A stretch of DNA of 64,000 nt from the sequence record OK283619.1. One strand, 5' to 3'. Each line of letters starts with the position of its first letter. Position 1 is the first letter of the stretch. The position numbers and the translations under genes were made by a program. This document shows, piece after piece, positions 3,232 through 62,964 of the stretch. The DNA is from Escherichia phage LPEK22. The notes under the pieces were generated by a model. The model did no database searches. It had not been told where the DNA came from and saw only the letters and a program-made list of their open reading frames with translations.

Positions 3232-3238
3232 CTAAATA
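3232..3238 (+). promoter_or_regulatory. Late-promoter-like motif CTAAATA(cc) upstream of a tailspike gene
   Basis: T4 late promoters are TATAAATA. The variant [C/T]TAAATAcc recurs upstream of many late genes in this window. Confidence 0.45.
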
Positions 3239-3271
3239 CCCCATATTGGTCATCCTTTATGGGGTATTATC

Positions 3272-5368
3272 ATGATTTCTCAATTCAATCAACCACGCGG
3301 CTCCACTTCCATAGAAGTTAACAAACAATCTATCGCTCGAAATTTCGGTGTCAAAGAAGACGAAGTCATTTATTTCACTGTCGGTATTGATCTCAGCGGA
3401 TTTAAAGTAATTTATGATGAGTCTACCCAACGGGCTTATTCTCTTCCTTCAGGTATTGTTTCAGGAACGACTGCGATAAGTCTGAACGAACAAGCCATCC
3501 TTACTCATTCTTCTGGCTCTGTTGATCTCGGGGAATTAGCAGTAAGCCGCGAAGAATATGTGACTTTACCTGGTTCTTTTAATTTCGGCCATACTATTAA
3601 TGTGAAAAATGAACTTCTTGTTCACGATGATGAAAAATATCGATGGGATGGTGCATTACCTAAAGTTGTTCCTGCTGGTTCAACTCCAGCATCAACTGGT
3701 GGCGTTGGTTTAGGTGCTTGGGTTAGTGTTGGTGATGCTGCATTTAGGCAGGAAGCTAATAAGAAATTCAAATATTCAGTAAAGTTATCTGATTATTCTA
3801 CATTACAGGATGCAGCGACAGCAGCCGTAGATGGATTGCTTATTGATGTTGACTACACTTTTACTGCAGATGAGAATGTAGATTTTAGCGGTAAAGTTTT
3901 AATCATTGAATGCAAAGGAAAATTCATTGGCGATGGTATGTTGGTTTGGAATGGTTTGGGTGCGGGCTCAGTAATTAAGAAACCGCACATGCATACTAAA
4001 ACTACGCCGTATACTGTTTACCGATTCGATGCAAACGGTAATTGGGTTACAGACCCAACACAAGTTCTGGCATCTGTTCAGCAGCGTTTGGATGTTGGAT
4101 ATAAGCCAAATATTAACGATTTAGATATTTGGGACGACCTTCCTGATAATGTAAAAAATCAGGTTGCTGGTGCTACTTTGCGAATAATGAGCGGCGATAA
4201 TATCATCGTAGAGAACCCAGAAGCTACATTTGGTGGTTATCTATTTACTTTATGTAATAGGATTCTTGTTAAGAATCCACGCAATTTTATTGCTTTGGAA
4301 TCGGGCATTACATTTGAGAACCATCATACAACTGCATGGGGTACTGGCAACTGGGTTGTTGGGGGTGAGATAAAATATGGCTCTGGTTCCGCTGTACTGT
4401 TCATTCGCAATGATGGTGGTACAGACCATGATGGTGGAGTAAGGGATTTAATCTCATACCGTGTTGGAGAATCAGGTATTAAAACCTATCAGAACGAAAT
4501 TGGAGGTCGTTCAGCCAGGAACTACCGTTTAGTGTTCGACAATATAACTACAATCCAGTGTTACTATGATGGTATTGATGTTAATGCTGACACAGGGTCG
4601 CCAACTGAACGTGTGGATGACTACTCACTCGCAGAGTATCCATGGTTCCACCTACCTACTCAACATATCATCCGTAATATTATTACTCGTGATTGTATGG
4701 GGATTGGTGCTTGGTGGGATGGTCAGAAAAATATTATTGATAATGTTGTTACTTATGAGGCCCATAAGGAAGGCGTCTTCGATAGGGGTACTAACAATGA
4801 TATTACTAACATTACTGTAGTAGGTGCGAATAAGGATTTAACTAACCTAAATCAGCTTACCTGTGAGGGAGGTAGTAGACTTCGTGGTATTAACATCCAT
4901 GCATATACTACACAAGGTTACGCTATATACGCTCCGTCTTCAGAAGTAAGTAATGTTTCCTGTGCTGGTTCCGGTACTAAGAAATTACTATGTACCTATA
5001 TAAGCGATATTCAGGGAGGTAATATCAATGTTCAGCATAGTGCCAACCAAATGACACTTGCAATGCAACCTGCTATGGGTGGTACTACAAACCCATCTTT
5101 GCTTATGACGGCAGATTGCCAGGTTGCTACACCAGGGGGTGAGGCAAGTATTGTCAAGCTTTCGGCAATTCAGGAGGGTGTACGTGTAGGTGAGTTTCAG
5201 CTTAACCGCTTAGGCTTTAAGCATATGAGTATACCTGCTGCCCCTTTACAATTACCAGAGAGCGCTCTGGAACATAATTCATCTATAGGATTCTTCTTCG
5301 GAAGTGACGGAGCATTGAGGTTGCTTGCTAAAAAACCAGATGGAAGTTATGTAACATACACACTTTAA
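3272..5368 (+). CDS. Tailspike protein (698 aa) with N-terminal shared anchor module
   Basis: ATG start. N-terminal 150 aa (VKEDEVIYFTVG...YRWDGALPKVVPAGSTPASTGGVGLGAWVSVGDA) matches the module in the other tailspikes. Preceded by terminator and late-promoter-like motif. Confidence 0.8.
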   Translation: MISQFNQPRGSTSIEVNKQSIARNFGVKEDEVIYFTVGIDLSGFKVIYDESTQRAYSLPSGIVSGTTAISLNEQAILTHSSGSVDLGELAVSREEYVTLPGSFNFGHTINVKNELLVHDDEKYRWDGALPKVVPAGSTPASTGGVGLGAWVSVGDAAFRQEANKKFKYSVKLSDYSTLQDAATAAVDGLLIDVDYTFTADENVDFSGKVLIIECKGKFIGDGMLVWNGLGAGSVIKKPHMHTKTTPYTVYRFDANGNWVTDPTQVLASVQQRLDVGYKPNINDLDIWDDLPDNVKNQVAGATLRIMSGDNIIVENPEATFGGYLFTLCNRILVKNPRNFIALESGITFENHHTTAWGTGNWVVGGEIKYGSGSAVLFIRNDGGTDHDGGVRDLISYRVGESGIKTYQNEIGGRSARNYRLVFDNITTIQCYYDGIDVNADTGSPTERVDDYSLAEYPWFHLPTQHIIRNIITRDCMGIGAWWDGQKNIIDNVVTYEAHKEGVFDRGTNNDITNITVVGANKDLTNLNQLTCEGGSRLRGINIHAYTTQGYAIYAPSSEVSNVSCAGSGTKKLLCTYISDIQGGNINVQHSANQMTLAMQPAMGGTTNPSLLMTADCQVATPGGEASIVKLSAIQEGVRVGEFQLNRLGFKHMSIPAAPLQLPESALEHNSSIGFFFGSDGALRLLAKKPDGSYVTYTL

Positions 5369-5441: not shown

Positions 5442-5448
5442 CTAAATA
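5442..5448 (+). promoter_or_regulatory. Late-promoter-like motif CTAAATA(cc)
   Basis: Same motif, upstream of the third tailspike gene. Confidence 0.45.
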
Positions 5449-5483
5449 CCCCATATTGGCAAATCCTTATGGGGTATTTTCAA

Positions 5484-10666: not shown

Positions 10667-10684
10667 CTAAATATCTCTATAAAT
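10667..10684 (+). promoter_or_regulatory. Late-promoter-like motifs (ctaaata and tataaatg) upstream of the 1612-aa gene
   Basis: tactaaatatctctataaatgg. Confidence 0.4.
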
Positions 10685-17181: not shown

Positions 17182-17188
17182 CTAAATA
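17182..17188 (+). promoter_or_regulatory. Late-promoter-like motif upstream of the gp14-like gene
   Basis: gactaaatacc. Confidence 0.45.
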
Positions 17189-17211: not shown

Positions 17212-17853
17212 ATGGCTACTTCAAAATATTTCAACTATACAGCACATCAAGGTACTCAAAAATTAATTGATGACTTGGTGGTCGAGATGATACAATTGCG
17301 TGGGATTGACGTCAAGTATATCCCACGTTCTATTGTTGAAAAATACCCAATTTTAAACGAGGCCGAACACAAATTCGACCAAGCGTTTGACATCGAAGTG
17401 TATATGCAGGATTATCAAGGCTTCAACACACAGATGTGGGAAAAGTTCGGCGGTATCCAATTACAAGATGAAGTGACATTCACTATTGCTCGTCGTCGTT
17501 TTTCAGAAGTTATTGGTAATGGTCCAGGCCTTGAACAAATGCCTCAAGAAGGTGATTTGATATATCTGCCTATGGCTAACAAAATATTTAAAGTGAATAA
17601 CCCGAATAACGATGAAGAATTCATGCAATTTGGGAAATGGTACACATATTCCCTACCATGTACGTTGTTCCAATACGGTAACGAAGATTTCGATACAGGT
17701 GTATCTGAAATAGACGATATTGATAAACGATTGCAGGATCTGGAAGGAGACGGTGTGTACAAAGACGCCAGCCTGCAAACGGATAACCAATTTGCGGACG
17801 AAATAGAGAAAGATCTTTCGCCCAATAAAATGAAGATAGACTTCGGGGAATAA
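17212..17853 (+). CDS. Neck protein, T4 gp14-like
   Basis: LIDDLVVEMIQLRGIDVKYIPRS, LQDEVTFTIARRRF and PQEGDLIYLPMANKIFKVN align with T4 gp14 as recalled. gactaaatacc motif upstream. Confidence 0.8.
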   Translation: MATSKYFNYTAHQGTQKLIDDLVVEMIQLRGIDVKYIPRSIVEKYPILNEAEHKFDQAFDIEVYMQDYQGFNTQMWEKFGGIQLQDEVTFTIARRRFSEVIGNGPGLEQMPQEGDLIYLPMANKIFKVNNPNNDEEFMQFGKWYTYSLPCTLFQYGNEDFDTGVSEIDDIDKRLQDLEGDGVYKDASLQTDNQFADEIEKDLSPNKMKIDFGE

Positions 17854-21431: not shown

Positions 21432-21438
21432 CTAAATA
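21432..21438 (+). promoter_or_regulatory. Late-promoter-like motif upstream of the sheath gene
   Basis: cactaaatatc. Confidence 0.45.
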
Positions 21439-21480: not shown

Positions 21481-23376
21481 ATGGCAACTCAAAGCTTCAG
21501 CGTTGCGCCGTCCGTTCAGTGGACTGAGCGTGATGCCACGCTTCAGACGTCCCCGTCCGTTGTTGTTCAGGGCGCGACCGTCGGCAAATTTCAATGGGGT
21601 GAAGTTGAACTTCCAGTGCTGGTGACTGGTGGTGAGACAGGTTTGGTGAAGAAATTCTTCAAACCCAACGACAGTACTGCGACAGATTTCCTTGTGATTG
21701 CAGACTTTTTGTCTTACAGCTCTATGGCATGGGTGACTCGTGTTGTTGGTCCTCTGGCCAAGAACTCTGTCACCAAAGGCCAGACAGCCATCACGATCAA
21801 AAACAAGCTGGATTTTGAAACAGCAAGTCCGTCAGCGTCTATCACTTGGGCTGGTCGTTATCCAGGTTCCCTGGGTAATGATATTGCTATCAATGTTTGT
21901 GACTCCGCTGGATTTCCGACCTGGGAATTCCGCAACAACTTTGCGTACGCACCTCAGTCTGGTGAATTCCATGTTGTGGTTGTAGACAAAGTTGGGCGCA
22001 TTACTGACTCTGAAGGCGCAGTCGGTCAGGTTGATCGTATATCTGTTTCTGGCACGGCAACTGCAGCTGGCACCATCAGTGTGGCAGGTGAAGATATTGC
22101 ATATCTGGATACTGATACTCCGGCCACTTTGGCGACCAAAATCGGCGCGGCGCTGACGGCGCTGACAGATGTTTATTCTTCTGTCGTTGTTAAGTCTAAC
22201 ACTGTCATCGTGACCCATAAAGCTATTGGTCCCCAGACAGTTACTGCTATTGTTCCAGATGATAAGGGGCTGACTGCAACCGCCGTGATTACCACTGTTG
22301 GCGCATCTGGTTCTATTATCGAAAAATACGAACTCATGCAGAACACACAGGGTTCCAAAAAGTCCGATGGCGCGAATGCGTACTTCAAAGATGTCATCAA
22401 TGATACATCAAATTGGGTGTACACCTTCGCTACCGCTCTGGCCGCAGGTGTTGTTGAATTAGAAGGCGGCGTAGACGATTATAACATCAACCGCGTGGCG
22501 GCTATCCAAGTCTTGAACAATGCCGAAGCATATGATGCGAAGCCAGTATTTGCATACTGTGAAGAGTTGATTGAGCAACAAGCATTGATCGACTTATCTA
22601 CTGAGCGAAAAGATACAGTATCTTTCGTATCCCCGCTCCGTGATACGGTTGTTGGCAACCGTGGTCGTGAAATGGATGATGTCGTTGCTTGGCGTGAAAG
22701 CCTTGTTCGCGACTCTTCTTATTTCTTCATGGATGATAACTGGGCATATGTGTACGACAAGTACAACGACAAAATGCGTTGGATTCCGGCTTGTGGTGGC
22801 ACCGCAGGTGTTTGGGCGCGAAGCATTGAAATCGCGGGTATCTACAAATCTCCGGCGTTCCACAACCGTGGTAAATACAACAACTATAATCGAATGGCGT
22901 GGTCTGCGTCTTCTGATGAACGTGCTGTGTTGTACCGCAATCAGATCAACAGCATCGTAACCTTCTCCAATGAAGGCATCGTCCTGTATGGTGACAAAAC
23001 TGGCCTGACCCGCCCGTCGGCGTTTGACCGTATCAACGTTCGTGGCCTGTTCATCATGGCTGAGCAGAACATCGCCGCAATCGCCAAATACTATCTTGGT
23101 GAGAACAATGACGCGTTTACACGTAGTCTGTTCAGCAATGCGGTTCGTCCATATATTCGCCAGCTGGCAAATATGGGCGCGATTTACGATGGTAAAGTCA
23201 AGTGTGATGAAGATAACAACACTGCTGATGTCATTGCGGCAAACCAAATGGTTGCTGGTATCTGGTTGAAGCCTGAGTACAGCATAAATTGGGTGTATCT
23301 TGACTTTGCTGCAGTTCGACCAGATATGGAGTTCAGCGAAATCGAATCCGGTGGCGGCATCGTTGCTGCTTCATAA
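21481..23376 (+). CDS. Tail sheath protein, T4 gp18-like
   Basis: YDKYNDKMRWIP and LYGDKTGLTRPSAFDRINVRGLF match T4 gp18 motifs as recalled. ATG at 21481 with RBS gaagga (track start at 21448 is TTG). Confidence 0.9.
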   Translation: MATQSFSVAPSVQWTERDATLQTSPSVVVQGATVGKFQWGEVELPVLVTGGETGLVKKFFKPNDSTATDFLVIADFLSYSSMAWVTRVVGPLAKNSVTKGQTAITIKNKLDFETASPSASITWAGRYPGSLGNDIAINVCDSAGFPTWEFRNNFAYAPQSGEFHVVVVDKVGRITDSEGAVGQVDRISVSGTATAAGTISVAGEDIAYLDTDTPATLATKIGAALTALTDVYSSVVVKSNTVIVTHKAIGPQTVTAIVPDDKGLTATAVITTVGASGSIIEKYELMQNTQGSKKSDGANAYFKDVINDTSNWVYTFATALAAGVVELEGGVDDYNINRVAAIQVLNNAEAYDAKPVFAYCEELIEQQALIDLSTERKDTVSFVSPLRDTVVGNRGREMDDVVAWRESLVRDSSYFFMDDNWAYVYDKYNDKMRWIPACGGTAGVWARSIEIAGIYKSPAFHNRGKYNNYNRMAWSASSDERAVLYRNQINSIVTFSNEGIVLYGDKTGLTRPSAFDRINVRGLFIMAEQNIAAIAKYYLGENNDAFTRSLFSNAVRPYIRQLANMGAIYDGKVKCDEDNNTADVIAANQMVAGIWLKPEYSINWVYLDFAAVRPDMEFSEIESGGGIVAAS

Positions 23377-26214: not shown

Positions 26215-26221
26215 CTAAATA
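26215..26221 (+). promoter_or_regulatory. Late-promoter-like motif upstream of the prohead core genes
   Basis: aactaaatata. Confidence 0.4.
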
Positions 26222-27432: not shown

Positions 27433-27439
27433 CTAAATA
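27433..27439 (+). promoter_or_regulatory. Late-promoter-like motif upstream of the scaffold gene
   Basis: cactaaatact. Confidence 0.45.
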
Positions 27440-27467: not shown

Positions 27468-28307
27468 ATGAAACCTGAATTGCAAAAACTGTTTGAAGGC
27501 GTTAATGGCCTCAGCACCGATTTCTTGGACAAAGTATCTGGTCTGCTGGAATCTAAAGTTGAAGCCGCCCGTCTGCAAGCTATTCAAGAAACTGAAGCGG
27601 CTGGTAACGTTGAGCGCCTGACTCTGGTAGAAGCCCACCAGAAAGAAGTCGCAGACCTTAAAGAAAATTTCACTCTTCAGTTGGCGGAAAAAGTTGATTC
27701 GTTCCTCAACGCGGTTGTTGAAGAATGGGCTAACAAAAATGCTCCGGCTATTGACGCTCAGATCAAAACCGAAGCTGCTGAACGCTTCCTCACTGGTTTC
27801 TCTAATGTTCTGAAAGAAGCAGGTGTTAGTTTCGCCACTGACCCAGACGGTCAGATTGCAGCTCTCACCAACCGCCTGGCTGAAGCAGAGCAACGCGCCA
27901 GCATTGCCAATACTGAATTGGCTCAGCTCAAAGAAAGTGAAACCAAACGCCAGCGCAATGATGTCATTGATCGTATTTGTGAAGGTATGGTTGACACCAA
28001 GAAAGACACTGTTGTCAACCTGCTGGAAGGTATTGAATTCCAGACCGAGTCTGAATTTGAATCCCGTGTGCGCACCTTCCGTAACCTGGTAGAAGGCAAA
28101 GATGACTTCTCTGATAAAGTCGGCAAAGACAATGAAAAAGGCAAGCCGGATGGCGACAAGTCTGAAAAAGACATCAAAGAAGGTAAAAAACCGAAGAAAG
28201 AAGGTGAAGCCGACGATGATGACGATGACGATGATGACAAAGACGAAGTTGGCAAAGAAGTCAACGAAGCCGTCCGTCGCCAGATCAGTGCTTTGCTGAA
28301 CGGCTAA
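27468..28307 (+). CDS. Prohead scaffolding protein, T4 gp22-like
   Basis: Alpha-helical, acidic, with a C-terminal poly-Asp tract. Position between protease and major capsid gene. Confidence 0.7.
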   Translation: MKPELQKLFEGVNGLSTDFLDKVSGLLESKVEAARLQAIQETEAAGNVERLTLVEAHQKEVADLKENFTLQLAEKVDSFLNAVVEEWANKNAPAIDAQIKTEAAERFLTGFSNVLKEAGVSFATDPDGQIAALTNRLAEAEQRASIANTELAQLKESETKRQRNDVIDRICEGMVDTKKDTVVNLLEGIEFQTESEFESRVRTFRNLVEGKDDFSDKVGKDNEKGKPDGDKSEKDIKEGKKPKKEGEADDDDDDDDDKDEVGKEVNEAVRRQISALLNG

Positions 28308-36025: not shown

Positions 36026-36771
36026 TGGTTTCTCTACAGGCTTTGCGCAAACTTAATGACTTTGAAAATCGTCATCATACATTTCAGCAATATTCCTTGC
36101 CGTTTAAGGAACTGACTTGCGTAACTACCGAAAATGGTCGTCACTATGTTTCCCCCACTGGAGTCAAACTAACTTCAGTGACGACCATGTTAGGGCGTAC
36201 TGGTGACCACACATGGTTAGAAGCCTGGCGGGACAAGTTGGGGCATGAAGCTGCTGATATAGAAACACATCGTTGCGCAGACCGTGGGGAAAAACTTCAT
36301 TTGGCTTGTGAGTTGTATCTCAAAAACAGACCAATGAAGGAAGTTCTGGAAGCTGCAGGGGAATACGTGTTTATGTTCAAACAGGTTTTCCCCTACCTTA
36401 ACAAAATGAGCAAGATATATGCACAAGAGATTCCATTATATAGCGAAGTCCTGGGTCTTGCTGGTCGTGTTGACCTCATCGGGGTTTACGAAGGAATTCC
36501 AAGCATAATCGATTTCAAAACATCTAACACCCTAAAAACTCGAAGCATGATAGAAGATTATAGTATTCAATTGTGTCTATACTCAGTCATGTTTCAACAA
36601 ATGTTTAATGTCAAGATAGAGCGTTTAATCAATATTATATCCAACGAAAATGCCCTTGTTCCCACCATAATCGAATTCGATCGCAAAGACGTTATTTCTA
36701 AAATGTTTGACCGTGTCCGTCTGTATCACAAAATGAACAAAGAACAGAACGGAATCTGGGCGGATCGCTAA
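36025..36771 (+). CDS. PD-(D/E)XK family nuclease (RecB/Cas4-like exonuclease fold), tentative
   Basis: GRVDLIGVYEGIPSIIDFKTS fits the D...(D/E)xK catalytic core. ATG at 36025 overlaps the upstream stop. Confidence 0.55.
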   Translation: MVSLQALRKLNDFENRHHTFQQYSLPFKELTCVTTENGRHYVSPTGVKLTSVTTMLGRTGDHTWLEAWRDKLGHEAADIETHRCADRGEKLHLACELYLKNRPMKEVLEAAGEYVFMFKQVFPYLNKMSKIYAQEIPLYSEVLGLAGRVDLIGVYEGIPSIIDFKTSNTLKTRSMIEDYSIQLCLYSVMFQQMFNVKIERLINIISNENALVPTIIEFDRKDVISKMFDRVRLYHKMNKEQNGIWADR

Positions 36772-36774
36772 ATA
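36768..36774 (+). promoter_or_regulatory. Late-promoter-like motif upstream of uvsW
   Basis: gctaaatactc, about 27 nt before the uvsW ATG. Confidence 0.4.
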
Positions 36775-36800: not shown

Positions 36801-38300
36801 ATGTCTGAGATCCAAATAGTCAAAGTGAACGAAGTTAGAATGCGGATCCTTACCGAGGATTATATCCGTGAAGAACTCAACGATTACTTCAAATTTGAAG
36901 ATCCTAATTTCCAACCGAATCCGTTCAGTAAATGGGACGGCGTAGTGCGGCTGTTCACAAAGAGTTCTGGGCTTATCGACATCGGCCTGTTATTTGAGGT
37001 GTTCAAATTCTGTAAGATGAACGGTTACACCATCAAATTAGATCCGACCTTAAAATATATTCAAGATATTCCGGATGAAGAAATTCATGCGTTCATCGAT
37101 ACATTGAATGCGGTGTACCGAGACGAAAACAAACAATATCAAAAAGCGATTGTCCGCGATTATCAATTTGATTCTGTTGCCACAGCAATACGCCAAAGCA
37201 GATGTGTCCTCGAAGCTGCCACGAGTGCTGGCAAATCCTTTATTTTGTACATCATGGCGCGTTACTACAGGCAACGCAGAGATGCCCTCGAAAGTAATCT
37301 GAGGACGTTAATTGTTGTACCATCCATTCATTTGGTGACTCAGTTGTATGACAACTTCGAAGAATATAGCCACGGGACAGAATGGAAGCCATTGATGAAC
37401 GTCCAGACAATATACGAAGGGGCAACGAAAGAGATTTTCAAACCCATAGTTATTTCAACTTGGCAAGGTATCCAGAACCAACCCAAAGAGTGGTTCCATC
37501 AATTTGGAGATATCGTCGTCGACGAAGTACATACATCAAAATCAGATAAATTGTCTTACATCTTGAACAACTGTATTAACGCTGATCAACGTTTGGGAGT
37601 AACCGGAACCCTGGCGAATACAAAGGTCGCAGGGTTACAAGTCGTTGCTCACTTTGGCGCATATCATAAAATTATTACAGCGCGCGATTTAATCGATCTA
37701 GGATATGCGGTAGACATCAATGTTAATATGATTGAAGTCATACATCCTATGGCAGACTGTATTGAAATGCACGGTGCTGAGTATCAAAAGGAAATAGAAT
37801 TCCTCATTGCTAACGAACGCCGCAATGAATTGATAGCCCGAATGGCTCTATCTTTGAAAGGGAACGTCGCAGTCATGTTCGAACGTATCGATGCACACAT
37901 GATGTTGGTTTATGAAATGCTATCGGCAGTCAAGAAAAACGTATTCGTCATCAACGGGGAAGTCAAGACAGAAGTTCGTAAACAGATTCAGGCTGCTATG
38001 GAAGAAGGGGAAGATATAACACTGTTGGCATCATATGGTACTATGCAACAGGGCGTATCTATCAAAAAACTCCATCATCTGATATTGGCCCATCCCAGCA
38101 AATCTTATATCCGTGTTATACAGACATTGGGGCGTTTGATGCGCCAGCATTCCTCTAAGGATGTTGCGCGAATCTGGGACCTGGTAGACAACCTGCGTTA
38201 CAACGGTTCCTACAACCATGCTCTCAGGCATTCTCATGAGAGATATAAATTTTATCTTATGGAGCGCCACCCTGTTAAAATGAAAAAAGTGGCGCTCTAA
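36801..38300 (+). CDS. uvsW: UvsW-like DNA helicase
   Basis: KWDGVVRL, ATSAGKSF (Walker A), STWQGIQNQPKEWFHQFG, DEVH, ASYGTMQQGVSIKKLHHLILAH, QTLGRLMR and WDLVD align along the length with T4 UvsW as recalled. ATG at 36801 (track start is GTG). Confidence 0.9.
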   Translation: MSEIQIVKVNEVRMRILTEDYIREELNDYFKFEDPNFQPNPFSKWDGVVRLFTKSSGLIDIGLLFEVFKFCKMNGYTIKLDPTLKYIQDIPDEEIHAFIDTLNAVYRDENKQYQKAIVRDYQFDSVATAIRQSRCVLEAATSAGKSFILYIMARYYRQRRDALESNLRTLIVVPSIHLVTQLYDNFEEYSHGTEWKPLMNVQTIYEGATKEIFKPIVISTWQGIQNQPKEWFHQFGDIVVDEVHTSKSDKLSYILNNCINADQRLGVTGTLANTKVAGLQVVAHFGAYHKIITARDLIDLGYAVDINVNMIEVIHPMADCIEMHGAEYQKEIEFLIANERRNELIARMALSLKGNVAVMFERIDAHMMLVYEMLSAVKKNVFVINGEVKTEVRKQIQAAMEEGEDITLLASYGTMQQGVSIKKLHHLILAHPSKSYIRVIQTLGRLMRQHSSKDVARIWDLVDNLRYNGSYNHALRHSHERYKFYLMERHPVKMKKVAL

Positions 38301-39010: not shown

Positions 39011-39679
39011 ATGCAAGAGATCACTCTCTCCGAACGCACTTTACAACTGCTGGCTAACTTTGAAACCATCTGCCCCTCTATCGTTCTGGCACCTGGTAAA
39101 AAGTTGCGCACTGTTAACGATTCCAGTACAGTTATCGCTATTGCCGACATTGACGAAGACTTCCCGTTCGAATTCCCGATTCTGGATCTGACCAAATTGC
39201 TGGCAATCCAGCGTCTGCCGAGTTTTAAAGGCGGTAAAATTGAAATGTCGGAAGACCACATTTTGCTGAAAGGTGAAAACTCCCAACTGCAATTCTGGCG
39301 TTCCGCTAAAGAACTGACTGTCGTTCCGGCAGACAGCATCGATCTCCCGTCTGTAGAATTTGAAGCAACAGTCACTCCTGAAAAAATGAAAGAGCTGACC
39401 CGCGCATGTTCTACTCTGGGCCACAAAACTGTACGCCTGGTTGCCAGCGGCGGTAAAACTCGTCTGGTGGGCACGACCACTACTATCGACAATTCCAACG
39501 ATTACACTGTTGAGTTGGGTGAAACAACTCTGGGTGATTTTGCTATGCCTGTTGATGTGGTCAACCTGAAAATGATCGAAGGCAACTACGTGATCCGCGC
39601 CTGTGCCGAAATGCAACTGGTTAACTTCCAATCCGCAGACGGCACCATCAACTATTACGTCGGCATGCAGCTGGATTAA
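39011..39679 (+). CDS. Sliding clamp, T4 gp45-like
   Basis: LQLLANFETICPSIVLAPG parallels T4 gp45 (LLKNFATINSGIMLKSG). ATG at 39011 with RBS gagga (track start is TTG). Lies upstream of the clamp loader. Confidence 0.8.
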   Translation: MQEITLSERTLQLLANFETICPSIVLAPGKKLRTVNDSSTVIAIADIDEDFPFEFPILDLTKLLAIQRLPSFKGGKIEMSEDHILLKGENSQLQFWRSAKELTVVPADSIDLPSVEFEATVTPEKMKELTRACSTLGHKTVRLVASGGKTRLVGTTTTIDNSNDYTVELGETTLGDFAMPVDVVNLKMIEGNYVIRACAEMQLVNFQSADGTINYYVGMQLD

Positions 39680-60489: not shown

Positions 60490-60531
60490 GATTCGTTCCT
60501 CATCGATAAAACCAGTTTGGGATACTTATAC

Positions 60532-61059
60532 ATGATTGAAATATACACTGACGGGGCATCATCCCCTCAGAAGACACGAGCCGCTGGTTGGGCATTTGCC
60601 ATCAGTCCAATCACTGGAGAGCAATGGAAAGTGTTTTATGGGTATTTACCCCCGCCGTCAACGAACAATATAGCTGAGTTACTCGGGGTTATAAACGCAA
60701 TGAAGATCCTATGGAAATTCTCTAATTGCGGTGAACGCTGCATTCCCCCAGCCCGCATCATATCCGACAGCCAATATGTTATCAATAGCGTTTTGGAGTG
60801 GCGTCGTAAATGGGAATATGAAGGAATGCCGCCTAAGAACACAGAACTTCTGCTCGAGTTGTTCGATTATTATGACAAAGTTTGTTCAATTTGTGAACTT
60901 GAATTAAAATGGGTGAAAGGTCATGCAGGAACGATGGGCAACGAAATTGCGGATCAGTGGAGCGTTAGAGCCAAAGAAGATAGTTCAATGGTTCTTGAAA
61001 ATAACCGTTTCTCGGTCAAGAAAGTCGTTGGTTCTTTCAATGAATTCATTGGTATTTGA
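60532..61059 (+). CDS. Ribonuclease HI (RNase H1-type)
   Basis: IYTDGAS...AGWAF...NNIAELLGVINAM...SDSQYVIN...WVKGHAG..GNE.AD carries the catalytic-residue pattern of RNase HI. ATG at 60532 (track start is TTG). Confidence 0.85.
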   Translation: MIEIYTDGASSPQKTRAAGWAFAISPITGEQWKVFYGYLPPPSTNNIAELLGVINAMKILWKFSNCGERCIPPARIISDSQYVINSVLEWRRKWEYEGMPPKNTELLLELFDYYDKVCSICELELKWVKGHAGTMGNEIADQWSVRAKEDSSMVLENNRFSVKKVVGSFNEFIGI

Positions 61060-61070
61060 GGATTATCACG

Positions 61071-61862
61071 ATGGGTATGAATTTTGTAGACAGGGGTGAT
61101 AACGTCACCAAATATTTCACAGACGAAGATAATGACCGTGTTGTTGGAATATTGAGAGATTGGATTCCGGCTCGCAAAAAGGCTTTGGCCGAAGGAACAC
61201 CCCTACCAAGAATCCCCAATTATGTGGCCATGAATGTTCAGATGATTATTAAGAACATGAGTATGCGCTACAACTATCGTGATTATCCATACCGCGAAGA
61301 CATGGTCAGTGAGGCCGTTGTCAACATCCTTCGTTACCTCCATACATTTGACGTCAGTCATATCGGCAAGAAAGGAAAAATCAATTTCTTCTCTTGGGTA
61401 ACGATGTGCGCCGATCGTTCATTCGCCAAGAAACTCACCAGTGAAGAAGAACACAATTATATCAAGTTGCGTTCATTTGAAGAAGCAGGTGGTTTCGCTG
61501 CATTATCAGATGACCCAGACTTCCAGCAACAGACATTCGTAGACAGCACTGGTATAACAATGGACTTCCGTGAGCGTATCGGAAATTTTGAAACTAAGAA
61601 AGAAGCACAGCGCGAAAAGGAACGCCAAAAGCAAATCGCCATCAAAGAAGAGGAAAAGAATAAGAAAATTCCTCGCGGTATACTTCAATGTCTCACAAAG
61701 AGTGAAAATACCATTACCGCCGACGCCGAAGATAATTCAGACTATGACTTCGGCTCTACTCAATTCAATCTGGAAGACGAAATATGTTCTATGGAACCAG
61801 ATTGGGAAGAAGCAAAGAAACGAGCATTAGAACGGGAGCAACAAAATAATGGCGATTGCTAA
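61071..61862 (+). CDS. Late-transcription sigma factor, T4 gp55-like, with C-terminal extension
   Basis: QMIIKNMSMRYNYRDYPYREDMVSEAVVNILRYLHTFD and INFFSWVTMCADRSFAKKLTSEEE parallel T4 gp55 as recalled. 263 aa against about 185 aa in T4; extra Lys/Glu-rich C-terminal region. Confidence 0.75.
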   Translation: MGMNFVDRGDNVTKYFTDEDNDRVVGILRDWIPARKKALAEGTPLPRIPNYVAMNVQMIIKNMSMRYNYRDYPYREDMVSEAVVNILRYLHTFDVSHIGKKGKINFFSWVTMCADRSFAKKLTSEEEHNYIKLRSFEEAGGFAALSDDPDFQQQTFVDSTGITMDFRERIGNFETKKEAQREKERQKQIAIKEEEKNKKIPRGILQCLTKSENTITADAEDNSDYDFGSTQFNLEDEICSMEPDWEEAKKRALEREQQNNGDC

Positions 61863-62964
61863 AATAGGCGATTTACATATCGGGAGCCGTAATGGTTCCC
61901 GTTACGTTCGAGAATTCATAAAGAATTATCTCATCAATTATTTTATTCCAGAATTGGTTGACGCCGATATTAAAGAAGTGTGGCAATTTGGTGATACGTT
62001 TGATGTTCGCAAATTCATGTATGGTCGCGATAAAGATTGGTTGAAAGATGAATTGACGCCAGCGCTGCGCAAAGCAGGTATTAAATGGAATGGCATCGTC
62101 GGCAACCATGATATCACGTTAGAAGAGTCCAATCGCATTAACTGGCCTTCTTATCTTAATGAATTGGCACCGGATGTTTATCATTATTACAGCGAACCAA
62201 CTGAAGTAATGATTGAAGGTGTCAAGACCCTCCTACTGCCGTGGATTAACAAAGAGAACTATGATGCGTCCATTAAAGCGATACAAGATACAGACGCCAA
62301 GTACTGTTTTGCGCATCTGGAGTTGGCAGGGTTCAAAATGTATCAGTCCTCTATATGTGATAAAGGTCAGATCGACGTGGCGCTCCTTTCGAAATTCGAG
62401 CGCGTGGATACCGGACATTTCCATACCCGTTCGATGGAAGGTAACATTCAGTATATTGGGACTCCTTATCACCTTACCTGGGAAGACCACAAAGACGGGA
62501 CGAACCGAGGATTCTATGTAGACGACATGAATGGCGGGGAATTGTTTATCCCCAACAACGAACAACAAACGTTGTTCCGGTTCGTGGAATACGACTACAC
62601 GCAAATGTCTTCTGACACCGAAGGTAATTGGATCGACCCCGATTGGTTAAACAATGTTTTGGGTATTGAAGGGCAAATCGTTAAGGTGATTGTACAGAAC
62701 CGTGACAATGCCAAGCATTATGAAAAGTTCTGTGACGCATTGAAGCGCTGTAAATGCATCGATTACAACTTCATCGATCGGACGATTACTGTTGCTTCCG
62801 AGAAGGTAGAAGTCACTGAAGAGATGGTGGCGACTGATGCTGTGGAAGTCCTGAAGAAAGATATCCGCGCCGCCAATAATATCCAGCGCCCTGAAAATGT
62901 TTGCAAATTAGCAGAACAATTCTATAATGCTGCCCAACAACGCCTGAACACATTGGATGCATAA
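61849..62964 (+). CDS. Recombination nuclease subunit, T4 gp47-like (Mre11/SbcD family)
   Basis: Phosphoesterase motifs GDLHIG, GDTFD, VGNHD, GHFH and YIGTP, colinear with T4 gp47. Confidence 0.9.
   Translation: MAIAKIGDLHIGSRNGSRYVREFIKNYLINYFIPELVDADIKEVWQFGDTFDVRKFMYGRDKDWLKDELTPALRKAGIKWNGIVGNHDITLEESNRINWPSYLNELAPDVYHYYSEPTEVMIEGVKTLLLPWINKENYDASIKAIQDTDAKYCFAHLELAGFKMYQSSICDKGQIDVALLSKFERVDTGHFHTRSMEGNIQYIGTPYHLTWEDHKDGTNRGFYVDDMNGGELFIPNNEQQTLFRFVEYDYTQMSSDTEGNWIDPDWLNNVLGIEGQIVKVIVQNRDNAKHYEKFCDALKRCKCIDYNFIDRTITVASEKVEVTEEMVATDAVEVLKKDIRAANNIQRPENVCKLAEQFYNAAQQRLNTLDA

What the first reader, a model, noticed from the sequence alone, without database searches (positions are those of the whole stretch)
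61071..61862. Late sigma factor gp55 homologue with a charged C-terminal extension
The first about 120 aa align with T4 gp55, but the protein continues for about 80 more residues, including a Lys/Glu-rich stretch (KKEAQREKERQKQIAIKEEEKNKK). This could change how it docks with the sliding clamp and co-activator, consistent with a late promoter motif ([C/T]TAAATAcc) that differs from T4 TATAAATA.
Basis: partly seen in the sequence, partly recalled or inferred. Interest (0 to 1): 0.35.

Follow-up and report, generated by a model that had tools for sequence, protein, structure and literature searches.

The report
Kuttervirus gp55 with extra acidic tail
This is the already annotated late-gene sigma factor (gp55) of a CBA120/ViI-type enterobacterial phage; its Lys/Glu-rich stretch is the normal linker of this protein family, and the only real oddity is an uncharacterised acidic tail of about 50 residues after the predicted sliding-clamp-binding motif.

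Summary
The ORF is real (61071-61862, +, 263 aa) and is 100% identical to CBA120 orf120, "gp55 sigma factor for late transcription". The window is a Kuttervirus (Ackermannviridae) genome. It is not a frameshift or fusion: 137 phage records carry it at 99% identity or more.

Homology to T4 gp55 runs to about residue 178, not 120. The family profile matches to about residue 207.

The Lys/Glu-rich stretch (aa 176-199) is the charged linker typical of the gp55 family; T4 is the atypical member. It leads to PRGILQCL (aa 203-211). That segment aligns with the clamp-binding motif at which short relatives end, and it resembles the phage's own DNA polymerase C-terminus.

The true addition is a 52-residue tail (aa 212-263). 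Its proximal half is acidic (net charge -10), carries DFGxTQFxLE and is under purifying selection. Its distal half is a swapped cassette that overlaps the gp47 start.

CTAAATA (not TTAAATA) is a real late-promoter motif here, but it is already published. It also occurs in phages whose gp55 lacks the tail, so it says nothing about the extension.

Overall this is an ordinary, known gene with a modest, untested tail.

The parts
61058..61062 (+). Shine-Dalgarno GAGGA for gp55; it overlaps the RNase H stop codon TGA (61057-61059)
   Evidence: Read directly from the sequence.
61071..61862 (+). gp55 late sigma factor CDS, 263 aa plus TAA
   Evidence: ORF. 100% identical to CBA120 orf120. PHROG 234, E=1.6e-53.
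61125..61604 (+). aa 19-178: sigma-R2-like helices plus helix-loop-helix core, homologous to T4 gp55 residues 11-160
   Evidence: Profile against PDB 7d7c_F, E=1.8e-7. Foldseek best hit 7d7c_F, TM 0.70. Model helices at 18-41, 50-66, 76-88, 106-138, 153-160 and 166-199.
61596..61667 (+). aa 176-199, KKEAQREKERQKQIAIKEEEKNKK: charged helical linker, 67% charged, net charge +4
   Evidence: Modelled as a continuation of helix 166-199, pLDDT about 77-86. The same columns are charged across the family. Charges.
61668..61703 (+). aa 200-211, IPRGILQCLTKS: predicted sliding-clamp-binding motif (SCBM), internal rather than C-terminal
   Evidence: Short homologues end 2-5 residues after this motif. The PHROG profile is matched up to aa 207, position 177 of 181. 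Same pattern as the CBA120 and Taipeivirus gp43 C-terminus RRVNLL[SA]MMGKKG. Binding itself was not tested.
61704..61802 (+). aa 212-244, proximal tail: aa 215-244 carry net charge -10 and no Lys or Arg; contains DYDFGSTQFNLEDE; mostly disordered in the model
   Evidence: pLDDT below 50 for aa 212-235. Conserved in Kuttervirus, Agtrevirus, Taipeivirus and Limestonevirus. For aa 215-240, dN/dS is 0.10-0.22 in four of the five comparisons that could be computed and 0.71 against Taipeivirus. Charges.
61803..61859 (+). aa 245-263, distal tail: variable cassette; the last 5 codons (NNGDC) overlap the gp47 start
   Evidence: Three cassette types are shuffled between genera. Overlap with the gp47 ATG at 61849.
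61849..62964 (+). gp47 (SbcD/Mre11-like) gene; it overlaps gp55 by 14 nt, and the gp55-gp47-gp46 order matches T4
   Evidence: PHROG 100, E=3.8e-108. CBA120 and T4 annotation.
39011..39679 (+). gp45 sliding clamp gene, the presumed partner of the motif at aa 200-211
   Evidence: Translation identical to CBA120 orf163. PHROG 223, E=1.5e-65.
3232..3238 (+). CTAAATA late-promoter-like site, 40 nt upstream of the tailspike ATG at 3272
5442..5448 (+). CTAAATA site upstream of the tailspike gene (ATG 5469)
10667..10673 (+). CTAAATA site, 39 nt upstream of ATG 10706
17182..17188 (+). CTAAATA site, 30 nt upstream of the gp14 ATG at 17212
21432..21438 (+). CTAAATA site, 49 nt upstream of the gp18 ATG at 21481
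26215..26221 (+). CTAAATA site just downstream of the portal gene and upstream of a small gene
   Evidence: CBA120 orf192.
27433..27439 (+). CTAAATA site, 35 nt upstream of the gp22 ATG at 27468
36768..36774 (+). CTAAATA site, 33 nt upstream of the UvsW ATG at 36801

Best explanation
The ORF is the Kuttervirus orthologue of T4 gp55, the late-promoter specificity subunit that replaces sigma-70 on host RNA polymerase.

Layout, N- to C-terminus:
1. A sigma-R2-like helical core plus helix-loop-helix (aa ~19-178). By analogy with T4 it docks on the beta-prime clamp helices and reads the -10-like late element, which here is CTAAATA.
2. A Lys/Glu-rich helix (aa 176-199). This is the charged spacer normal for the family, in the position of T4's 21-residue linker.
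3. A short hydrophobic motif, PRGILQCL (aa 203-211). This is the homologue of the sliding-clamp-binding motif and tethers the holoenzyme to the phage clamp gp45, together with the gp33-like co-activator encoded elsewhere in the genome.
4. A lineage-specific 52-residue tail. The proximal acidic half, with DFGxTQFxLE, is conserved and probably modulates the clamp or electrostatic interactions. The distal half is a poorly constrained gene-boundary cassette that overlaps the gp47 translation start.

Shown here: identity, fold, architecture, conservation pattern, partner genes and promoter-site placement.
Inferred: binding to RNA polymerase, to the clamp and to the promoter, and any role of the tail.
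For: - Identity: 100% identical to CBA120 orf120.
- Family and fold: PHROG 234 E=1.6e-53 over aa 12-207; profile hit to T4 gp55 7d7c_F, E=1.8e-7; Foldseek top hit 7d7c_F, probability 1.00, TM 0.70.
- Promoter-pocket residues: of the seven tested in T4 (N13, L54, R57, F86, H95, Y97, T99; PMC7892883), four are identical in the alignment (N21, R66, F93, T111), one is conservative (M63) and two differ (F107, W109).
- Linker: the charged stretch is the family norm.
- Motif: relatives of 197-224 aa end within 2-5 residues of the G[LI]xx[FLM][LMF] motif. The phage's own gp43 ends RRVNLLSMMGKKG, and Taipeivirus gp43 ends RRVNLLAMMGKKG.
- Partners: gp45 is in the window; a gp33-family protein is in CBA120 (phrog_254, E=4e-23).
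- Tail: found only at gp55 loci of Ackermannviridae, in 268 records with one place each, and it is the longest among 198 family members examined.
- Selection on the proximal tail (aa 215-240): dN/dS 0.14 against another Kuttervirus and 0.10-0.22 against Agtrevirus and Limestonevirus, but 0.71 against Taipeivirus. The distal tail is replaced wholesale.
- Promoter: CTAAATA sits 27-49 nt upstream of late genes, P about 9e-9.
Against: - No biochemical evidence exists for this protein.
- The clamp-binding assignment rests on alignment position and motif resemblance. The motif is basic here, whereas T4's is acidic.
- The gp33-like C-terminus (ARLLKGELKSKKLI) fits the pattern only loosely.
- Synonymous sites are saturated in most comparisons, so several dN/dS values could not be computed.
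- The AlphaFold model is only moderate (mean pLDDT 74.5, pTM 0.53, 24-sequence alignment).
- The function of the tail is a guess.
Confidence: 0.8

Rival explanations
1. The conserved tail motif (D-F-G-x-T-Q-F-x-L-E-D/E) is a second, PIP-box-like clamp-binding site. One gp55 would then grip two protomers of the gp45 trimer, or hand over between them, giving stronger or differently regulated clamp-dependent activation than in T4.
For: - The motif is conserved across four genera and is under purifying selection in most comparisons.
- Variants read Q-F-S-L-E-D-I-M, which is Q-x-x-L-x-x-h-h, the PIP-box pattern (recalled from memory).
- About 20 disordered residues separate it from the first motif. 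That is enough to reach a neighbouring protomer.
- In the T4 model one gp45 protomer stays free (PMC7892883).
- A few unrelated gp55 lineages also carry a second hydrophobic-acidic cluster after the motif, for example P0063, P0088 and P0094.
Against: - The window's own variant (QFNLEDEI) fits the pattern less well.
- The phage's other clamp motifs are basic, not acidic.
- No other CBA120 protein carries the tail motif.
- Miltonvirus and more distant relatives lack it.
- No docking or binding test could be run.
Confidence: 0.15
2. The tail has no specific function. It is a tolerated, disordered read-on created by rearrangements at the gp55/gp47 boundary, and it persists because the end of gp55 must overlap the gp47 translation start.
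For: - The tail is absent from outgroups, and its length forms a graded series from 0 to 49 residues.
- The distal part exists as at least three cassettes shuffled between genera, and it is truncated in Limestonevirus and MK-13.
- The terminal NNGDC is explained by the overlap with the gp47 start.
- A homing endonuclease sits next to the gene in Dickeya phage Kamild.
- pLDDT is below 50 for aa 212-235.
- In T4, loss of the gp55 clamp motif only impairs activation (PMC7892883).
Against: The proximal half (aa 215-240) keeps its sequence at pS 0.4-0.7 with pN 0.09-0.25, giving dN/dS of 0.10-0.22 in four of five computable comparisons. It also keeps a strict absence of basic residues. Neither is expected for neutral filler.
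Confidence: 0.3
3. One reading: the extension re-shapes docking with the clamp and co-activator in a way that goes with the altered late-promoter motif.
For: The phage does use CTAAATA rather than TATAAATA, and the protein is longer than T4 gp55.
Against: - In T4, promoter reading is done by the sigma-R2-like domain, and C-terminally truncated gp55 still forms open complexes (PMC7892883).
- Aeh1 uses CTAAATA with a 173-aa gp55.
- A tail-less relative has CTAAATA upstream of a likely late gene, whose counterpart in a sister contig carries a tailspike domain.
- The K/E stretch is family-typical.
Confidence: 0.05
4. The long ORF is an artefact, either a sequencing frameshift or a fusion of two genes.
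For: None found.
Against: - The identical ORF occurs in independent genomes: 137 records at 99% identity or more.
- The tail is present in 268 records.
- The reading frame is intact in seven genera-spanning relatives.
- Tail-less relatives have no extra ORF between gp55 and gp47.
Confidence: 0.01

Closest known systems
CBA120 orf120 and the gp55 of other Kuttervirus phages ('sigma factor for late transcription')
   Same: The amino-acid sequence is 100% identical to CBA120 orf120 and to many Salmonella phages, with the same RNase H - gp55 - gp47 - gp46 neighbourhood.
   Different: Nothing differs from CBA120. Vi01 itself and some other Kuttervirus phages carry a different distal-tail cassette, 57.7% identical over the tail.
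Bacteriophage T4 gp55 (PDB 7D7C/7D7D)
   Same: Same fold (TM 0.70) and homologous over T4 residues 11-160. Most promoter-pocket residues are conserved. Same plan of core, then linker, then clamp-binding motif. Same partners (gp33, gp45) and the same position next to gp47/gp46.
   Different: - Only 18% pairwise identity.
- H95 and Y97 are replaced by F107 and W109.
- The linker is a charged helix rather than a flexible segment.
- The clamp motif is basic and internal (PRGILQCL) rather than acidic and terminal (SLDFLYEAND).
- It has a 52-residue acidic tail.
- Its promoter is CTAAATA rather than TATAAATA.
Aeromonas phage Aeh1 gp55
   Same: Uses a CTAAATA late promoter (PMC1524935). Has a Lys-rich linker followed by GGLSFLEDDEDDSE, a clamp-type motif with a short acidic end.
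   Different: It is 173 aa with no long tail, and it keeps the T4-type H-A-Y pocket residues.
Sigma-70 family region 2
   Same: Helical domain of the same type, as shown for T4 gp55 (PMC7892883). Weak Foldseek hits to mycobacterial SigA and to the SigE N-terminal domain.
   Different: No Pfam Sigma70_r2 match for the window protein, and T4 gp55 scores only E=0.087, below the cut-off. There are no regions 3 or 4.

Membership tests
T4-type late sigma factor gp55 | Significant sequence or profile similarity to gp55 proteins | tested here: met
   PHROG 234 E=1.6e-53. Profile against T4 gp55 7d7c_F, E=1.8e-7. 1971 library clusters at E<=0.001. Pairwise BLASTP alone is marginal, E=0.005.
T4-type late sigma factor gp55 | Sigma-R2-like helical domain with a long H4 and a helix-loop-helix | tested here: met
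   AlphaFold model, pLDDT 74.5, with a long helix at 106-138. Foldseek best PDB hit 7d7c_F, probability 1.00, TM 0.70, 149 columns.
T4-type late sigma factor gp55 | Promoter-pocket residues shown by mutagenesis in T4 (N13, L54, R57, F86, H95, Y97, T99) | tested here: inconclusive
   By the alignment: N21, R66, F93 and T111 are identical, M63 is conservative, and F107 and W109 differ. The consequences are unknown (PMC7892883).
T4-type late sigma factor gp55 | Short hydrophobic sliding-clamp-binding motif at or near the C-terminus, after a variable linker | tested here: inconclusive
   A motif of the family's pattern is present at aa 203-211 and aligns with the C-terminal motifs of short relatives. 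Here it is 52 residues from the C-terminus. Binding was not tested.
T4-type late sigma factor gp55 | Co-occurrence with the gp45 clamp and the gp33 co-activator | tested here: met
   gp45 lies in the window at 39011-39679 (PHROG 223, E=1.5e-65). CBA120 orf084 matches phrog_254, the gp33 family, at E=4.2e-23; it lies outside the window.
T4-type late sigma factor gp55 | A-T-rich -10-like element, with no -35 element, upstream of late (virion) genes | tested here: met
   CTAAATA sits 27-49 nt upstream of tailspike, neck, sheath and scaffold genes, P about 9e-9. It is a variant of TATAAATA, and CTAAATAcCcc is a published motif. Absence of a -35 element was not examined.
T4-type late sigma factor gp55 | Binds RNA polymerase core and directs late transcription | not testable with these tools
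   Requires biochemistry or genetics.
Sigma-70 family (Pfam Sigma70_r2/r4) | Match to the region 2 and region 4 models | tested here: not met
   No Pfam or NCBIfam family at E<=0.1. T4 gp55 itself is also below the cut-off, so this says little.

The most novel reading that the evidence does not exclude
In Ackermannviridae the gp55 clamp-binding motif has become internal and is followed by a conserved acidic, PIP-box-like second motif (TQF[NS]LE[DE]). The tail could give bivalent or switchable binding to the gp45 trimer. Alternatively it could fold back on the basic linker and motif as an autoinhibitory, DNA-mimicking element, taking over part of the job that gp33 does in T4. The 8-residue resemblance to the non-conserved N-terminus of T4 gp33 (TQFSLNDI against TQFSLEDI) would then not be chance.
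Probability: 0.12. Interest if true: 0.4.

Novelty: already known. Interest (0 to 1): 0.15.

Why it matters
It matters little as it stands. The gene has been annotated as gp55 in hundreds of deposited Ackermannviridae genomes, and the promoter motif is published.

The useful outcome is a corrected anatomy. T4, the reference protein, is atypical in its linker, so comparing with T4 alone makes an ordinary family feature look like an extension.

The one untested feature is the acidic tail after an internal clamp-binding motif. If the tail does contact the clamp or mask the motif, it would be a small but concrete variation on how a sliding clamp activates transcription. It would be easy to test with peptides and in vitro transcription.

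Tried and rejected
1. **Overlapping gene in the +1 frame (ORF 61570-61830).** The frame is stop-free for 66-92 codons in all seven relatives, but its limits shift. The purine-rich K/E codons explain this, so it was rejected.
2. **Tyr97-to-Trp109 as the determinant of C at -12.** Aeh1 uses CTAAATA yet keeps H-A-Y, so this was not claimed.
3. **Tail borrowed from another phage gene.** tblastn of the tail finds only gp55 loci.
4. **Tail motif shared by other CBA120 clamp clients.** A regex scan of all six frames finds it only in gp55.
5. **T4 gp33 N-terminus (MTQFSLNDI) versus tail variants (KTQFSLEDI).** Seven of eight residues match. However, the N-proximal third of gp33 is variable or missing in relatives (PMC2988020), and it lies outside the gp33 family profile. 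It was kept only as a low-probability lead.
6. **Pfam and NCBIfam.** Neither has a model for gp55, even for T4's, so they are uninformative.
7. **phmmer of the single protein against PDB.** It found only noise; the profile was needed.
8. **dN/dS.** Synonymous sites are saturated in many comparisons.

Full report
**What the window is.** The 2.5 kb around the finding is 99.3-99.7% identical to Salmonella and E. coli phages of the genus Kuttervirus (Ackermannviridae), including S118, CBA120 and Det7. The ORF at 61071-61862 (+) encodes 263 aa. It has ATG 61071, a GAGGA Shine-Dalgarno 8 nt upstream, and a TAA stop at 61860-61862. The protein is 100% identical to CBA120 orf120, annotated "gp55 sigma factor for late transcription". 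It is at least 99% identical in 137 phage records, and 281 records cover at least 80% of it. The neighbours are RNase H upstream and gp47/gp46 downstream. T4 has the same gp55 - gp47 - gp46 order. A sequencing frameshift or fusion is therefore excluded.

**Is it a gp55?** Yes.
- Pfam and NCBIfam have no model that detects even T4 gp55.
- PHROG 234 (late sigma transcription factor) matches at E=1.6e-53 over aa 12-207, which is profile positions 4-177 of 181.
- Pairwise BLASTP to T4 gp55 is weak: 18% identity over aa 52-160, E=0.005.
- A profile of 24 Ackermannviridae-type homologues (A1) hits T4 gp55 in the PDB (7d7c_F) at E=1.8e-7. Profile positions 19-178 align with T4 residues 11-160.
- An AlphaFold model (mean pLDDT 74.5) has 7d7c_F as its best PDB match, with probability 1.00 and TM 0.70 on the target.
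- An exhaustive profile search finds 1971 clusters of relatives. The 149 representatives examined have a median length of 203 aa.

**Where the extra residues are.** The homology in fact runs to about aa 178.

- *Reference layout in T4.* The ordered structure ends at residue 153. [quoted passage not shown]
- *Family layout.* Aligning 200 family members to the profile shows the same plan everywhere. A conserved [YF]E.K ends the core. A charged linker of variable length follows, then a short hydrophobic motif G[LI]xx[FLM][LMF], then a few residues.
- *The K/E stretch.* The window's KKEAQREKERQKQIAIKEEEKNKK (aa 176-199, 67% charged) lies in the linker columns. Among 118 non-Ackermannviridae representatives these columns are 60% charged at the median, and 85% of them are at least 50% charged. 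The K/E stretch is therefore the family norm, and T4's linker is the unusual one.
- *Its likely role.* The model extends the last core helix through this stretch (helix 166-199, pLDDT about 77-86). That would make a spacer of roughly 50 Å (my estimate at 1.5 Å per residue). The distance that T4's linker has to span is 45 Å (PMC7892883).

**The clamp-binding motif.** PRGILQCL (aa 203-211) aligns with the C-terminal motifs of short relatives.
- Proteins of 197-224 aa end within 2-5 residues of it, for example KMPVGLLQYMRGSK, PPKGLMVFLEEGQE and NGLARLMESKKNG.
- The gp55 of a related Vibrio phage (218 aa) ends NGLAKLFASQKEKSE.
- Aeh1 gp55 ends GGLSFLEDDEDDSE.
- The phage's own DNA polymerase ends KRRVNLLSMMGKKG, and the Taipeivirus polymerase ends KRRVNLLAMMGKKG. 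Both show the same hydrophobic-hydrophobic-polar-hydrophobic-hydrophobic pattern with basic flanks.
- The clamp gene gp45 is in the window at 39011-39679.
- A gp33-family protein (phrog_254, E=4e-23) is encoded elsewhere in CBA120.

I therefore read aa 203-211 as the SCBM. This is an inference from position and pattern, not a binding test.

**The real extension.** After the motif come 52 more residues (aa 212-263). This is the longest such tail among the 198 family members examined. Tail lengths form a graded series from 0 to 49 residues within the wider clade. tblastn of the tail finds it only at gp55 loci of Ackermannviridae, in 268 records with one place each.

- *Proximal part.* In the segment aa 215-244 the net charge is -10, with no Lys or Arg. 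It contains DFGxTQF[NS]LE[DE], which is conserved in Kuttervirus, Agtrevirus, Taipeivirus and Limestonevirus. Most of it is disordered in the model, with pLDDT below 50 for aa 212-235.
- *Selection on the proximal part.* For aa 215-240, against another Kuttervirus (AR2819) pN is 0.09 at pS 0.43, giving dN/dS 0.14. Against Agtrevirus and Limestonevirus dN/dS is 0.10-0.22. Against Taipeivirus it is 0.71, and against Miltonvirus it could not be computed. Overall this indicates constraint.
- *Distal part (aa 245-263).* It behaves as a swapped cassette. The window shares ICSMEPDWEEAKKRALEREQQ with Agtrevirus P46FS4. Kuttervirus AR2819 shares IMDSPTLL..GEK with Taipeivirus. Limestonevirus and MK-13 end early. 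Vi01 itself carries a tail only 57.7% identical.
- *The terminal NNGDC.* It is conserved because those codons overlap the gp47 start at 61849.

**Promoter motif.**
- CTAAATA occurs nine times on the coding strand and once on the other.
- Seven of the nine lie 27-49 nt upstream of a start codon of an ORF of at least 60 aa, binomial P about 9e-9. The count is eight if the 56-aa gene after the portal gene is included.
- The genes served are tailspikes, gp14, gp18, gp22 and UvsW.
- TTAAATA sites are all intragenic.
- T4's TATAAATA is not enriched: 3 sites found against 2.5 expected.
- CTAAATAcCcc is already cited as a regulatory motif of this phage group (PMC7283392).

The motif does not bear on the extension, for three reasons:
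1. In T4 the element is read by pockets in the sigma-R2-like domain. C-terminally truncated gp55 still binds polymerase and forms open complexes (PMC7892883).
2. Aeh1 uses CTAAATA (PMC1524935) with a 173-aa gp55.
3. A 216-aa tail-less relative has its only CTAAATA in 20 kb about 35 nt upstream of the start of an 844-aa gene. The counterpart of that gene in a sister contig carries a tailspike domain.

Of the seven T4 pocket residues, four are identical here, one is conservative, and H95 and Y97 become F107 and W109. Aeh1 keeps H-A-Y, so I do not claim these changes explain the C at -12.

**What the tail might do.** Three readings remain.
- *Neutral gene-boundary filler.* This fits the distal half but not the constrained proximal half.
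- *A second clamp contact.* Variants read Q-F-S-L-E-D-I-M, which is PIP-box-like. About 20 disordered residues separate it from the first motif, and the T4 model leaves one clamp protomer free.
- *An acidic element that masks the basic linker and motif.*

None of these could be tested here. A curious 7-of-8 match between tail variants (TQFSLEDI) and the N-terminus of T4 gp33 (TQFSLNDI) is probably chance. That part of gp33 is variable or absent in relatives (PMC2988020), and it lies outside the gp33 family profile.

**Novelty and verdict.** The gene and the promoter motif are known. The paper on the related phage ΦSboM-AG3 already lists gp55, gp33 and gp45 homologues (PMC3121705). I found no paper in the searchable library that discusses the tail. 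That is a limit of the library, not proof of absence. The finding is a correctly spotted but mis-delimited feature of an ordinary, annotated gene, and I score its interest as low.

Noticed in passing
window 3239-3264 and 5449-5474: Directly after CTAAATA at the two tailspike genes there is a CCCCATA...TATGGGG hairpin in the 5' leader. RNA folding gives -14.2 and -10.9 kcal/mol, with z-scores of -2.1 and -1.2. This probably accounts for the 'cCcc' in the published CTAAATAcCcc motif.
   Followed up: partly
window 36768-36774: A CTAAATA late-type site lies 33 nt upstream of the UvsW helicase start (36801). A recombination and replication gene therefore appears to be under late control.
   Followed up: no
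L005 14707-16011 (Logan ERR11525546_188, 139 kb contig): This phage-like contig encodes the tail-less gp55 relative P0047. It also encodes a 434-aa protein with Sigma70_r2 and Sigma70_r4 domains a few kb downstream of gp46/gp47.
   Followed up: no
L010 473-1207 (Dickeya phage Kamild): A putative homing endonuclease is inserted between RNase H and gp55. This fits a recombination-prone gene boundary.
   Followed up: no
L009, L008, L007 (AR2819, 0507-KN2-1, P46FS4), gp55 codons ~241-258: The distal-tail cassettes do not follow the taxonomy. The window (Kuttervirus) matches Agtrevirus P46FS4, whereas Kuttervirus AR2819 matches Taipeivirus. This indicates recombination between genera at the gp55/gp47 junction.
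   Followed up: partly
phage record OR844944 ('Enterococcus phage Efm 3-10', 38.5 kb): The record carries a gp55 that is 99.6% identical to this Kuttervirus protein. It is probably a mislabelled or contaminated record.
   Followed up: no
window 60517-61059; CBA120 orf121: The RNase H ORF here is 175-180 aa, and the Pfam RNase_H match starts at residue 7. CBA120 annotates only 142 aa, so its start codon was probably called too far downstream.
   Followed up: no
L007 1179-1589 (Salmonella phage P46FS4): The gp47 (SbcD-like) homologue is annotated as 'cell division trigger factor', which looks like a misannotation.
   Followed up: no
L015 (Vibrio phage K441 DNA polymerase C-terminus): The clamp-motif-like RVNLFALGG is internal and is followed by a 30-residue Lys-rich tail. 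Post-motif tails are therefore not confined to gp55 in this wider clade.
   Followed up: no
window 61570-61830 (+1 frame inside gp55): An 86-aa Lys/Arg-rich ORF overlaps the 3' half of gp55. The frame is open in all relatives, but with shifting limits, as expected from purine-rich codons. It is not a conserved gene.
   Followed up: yes
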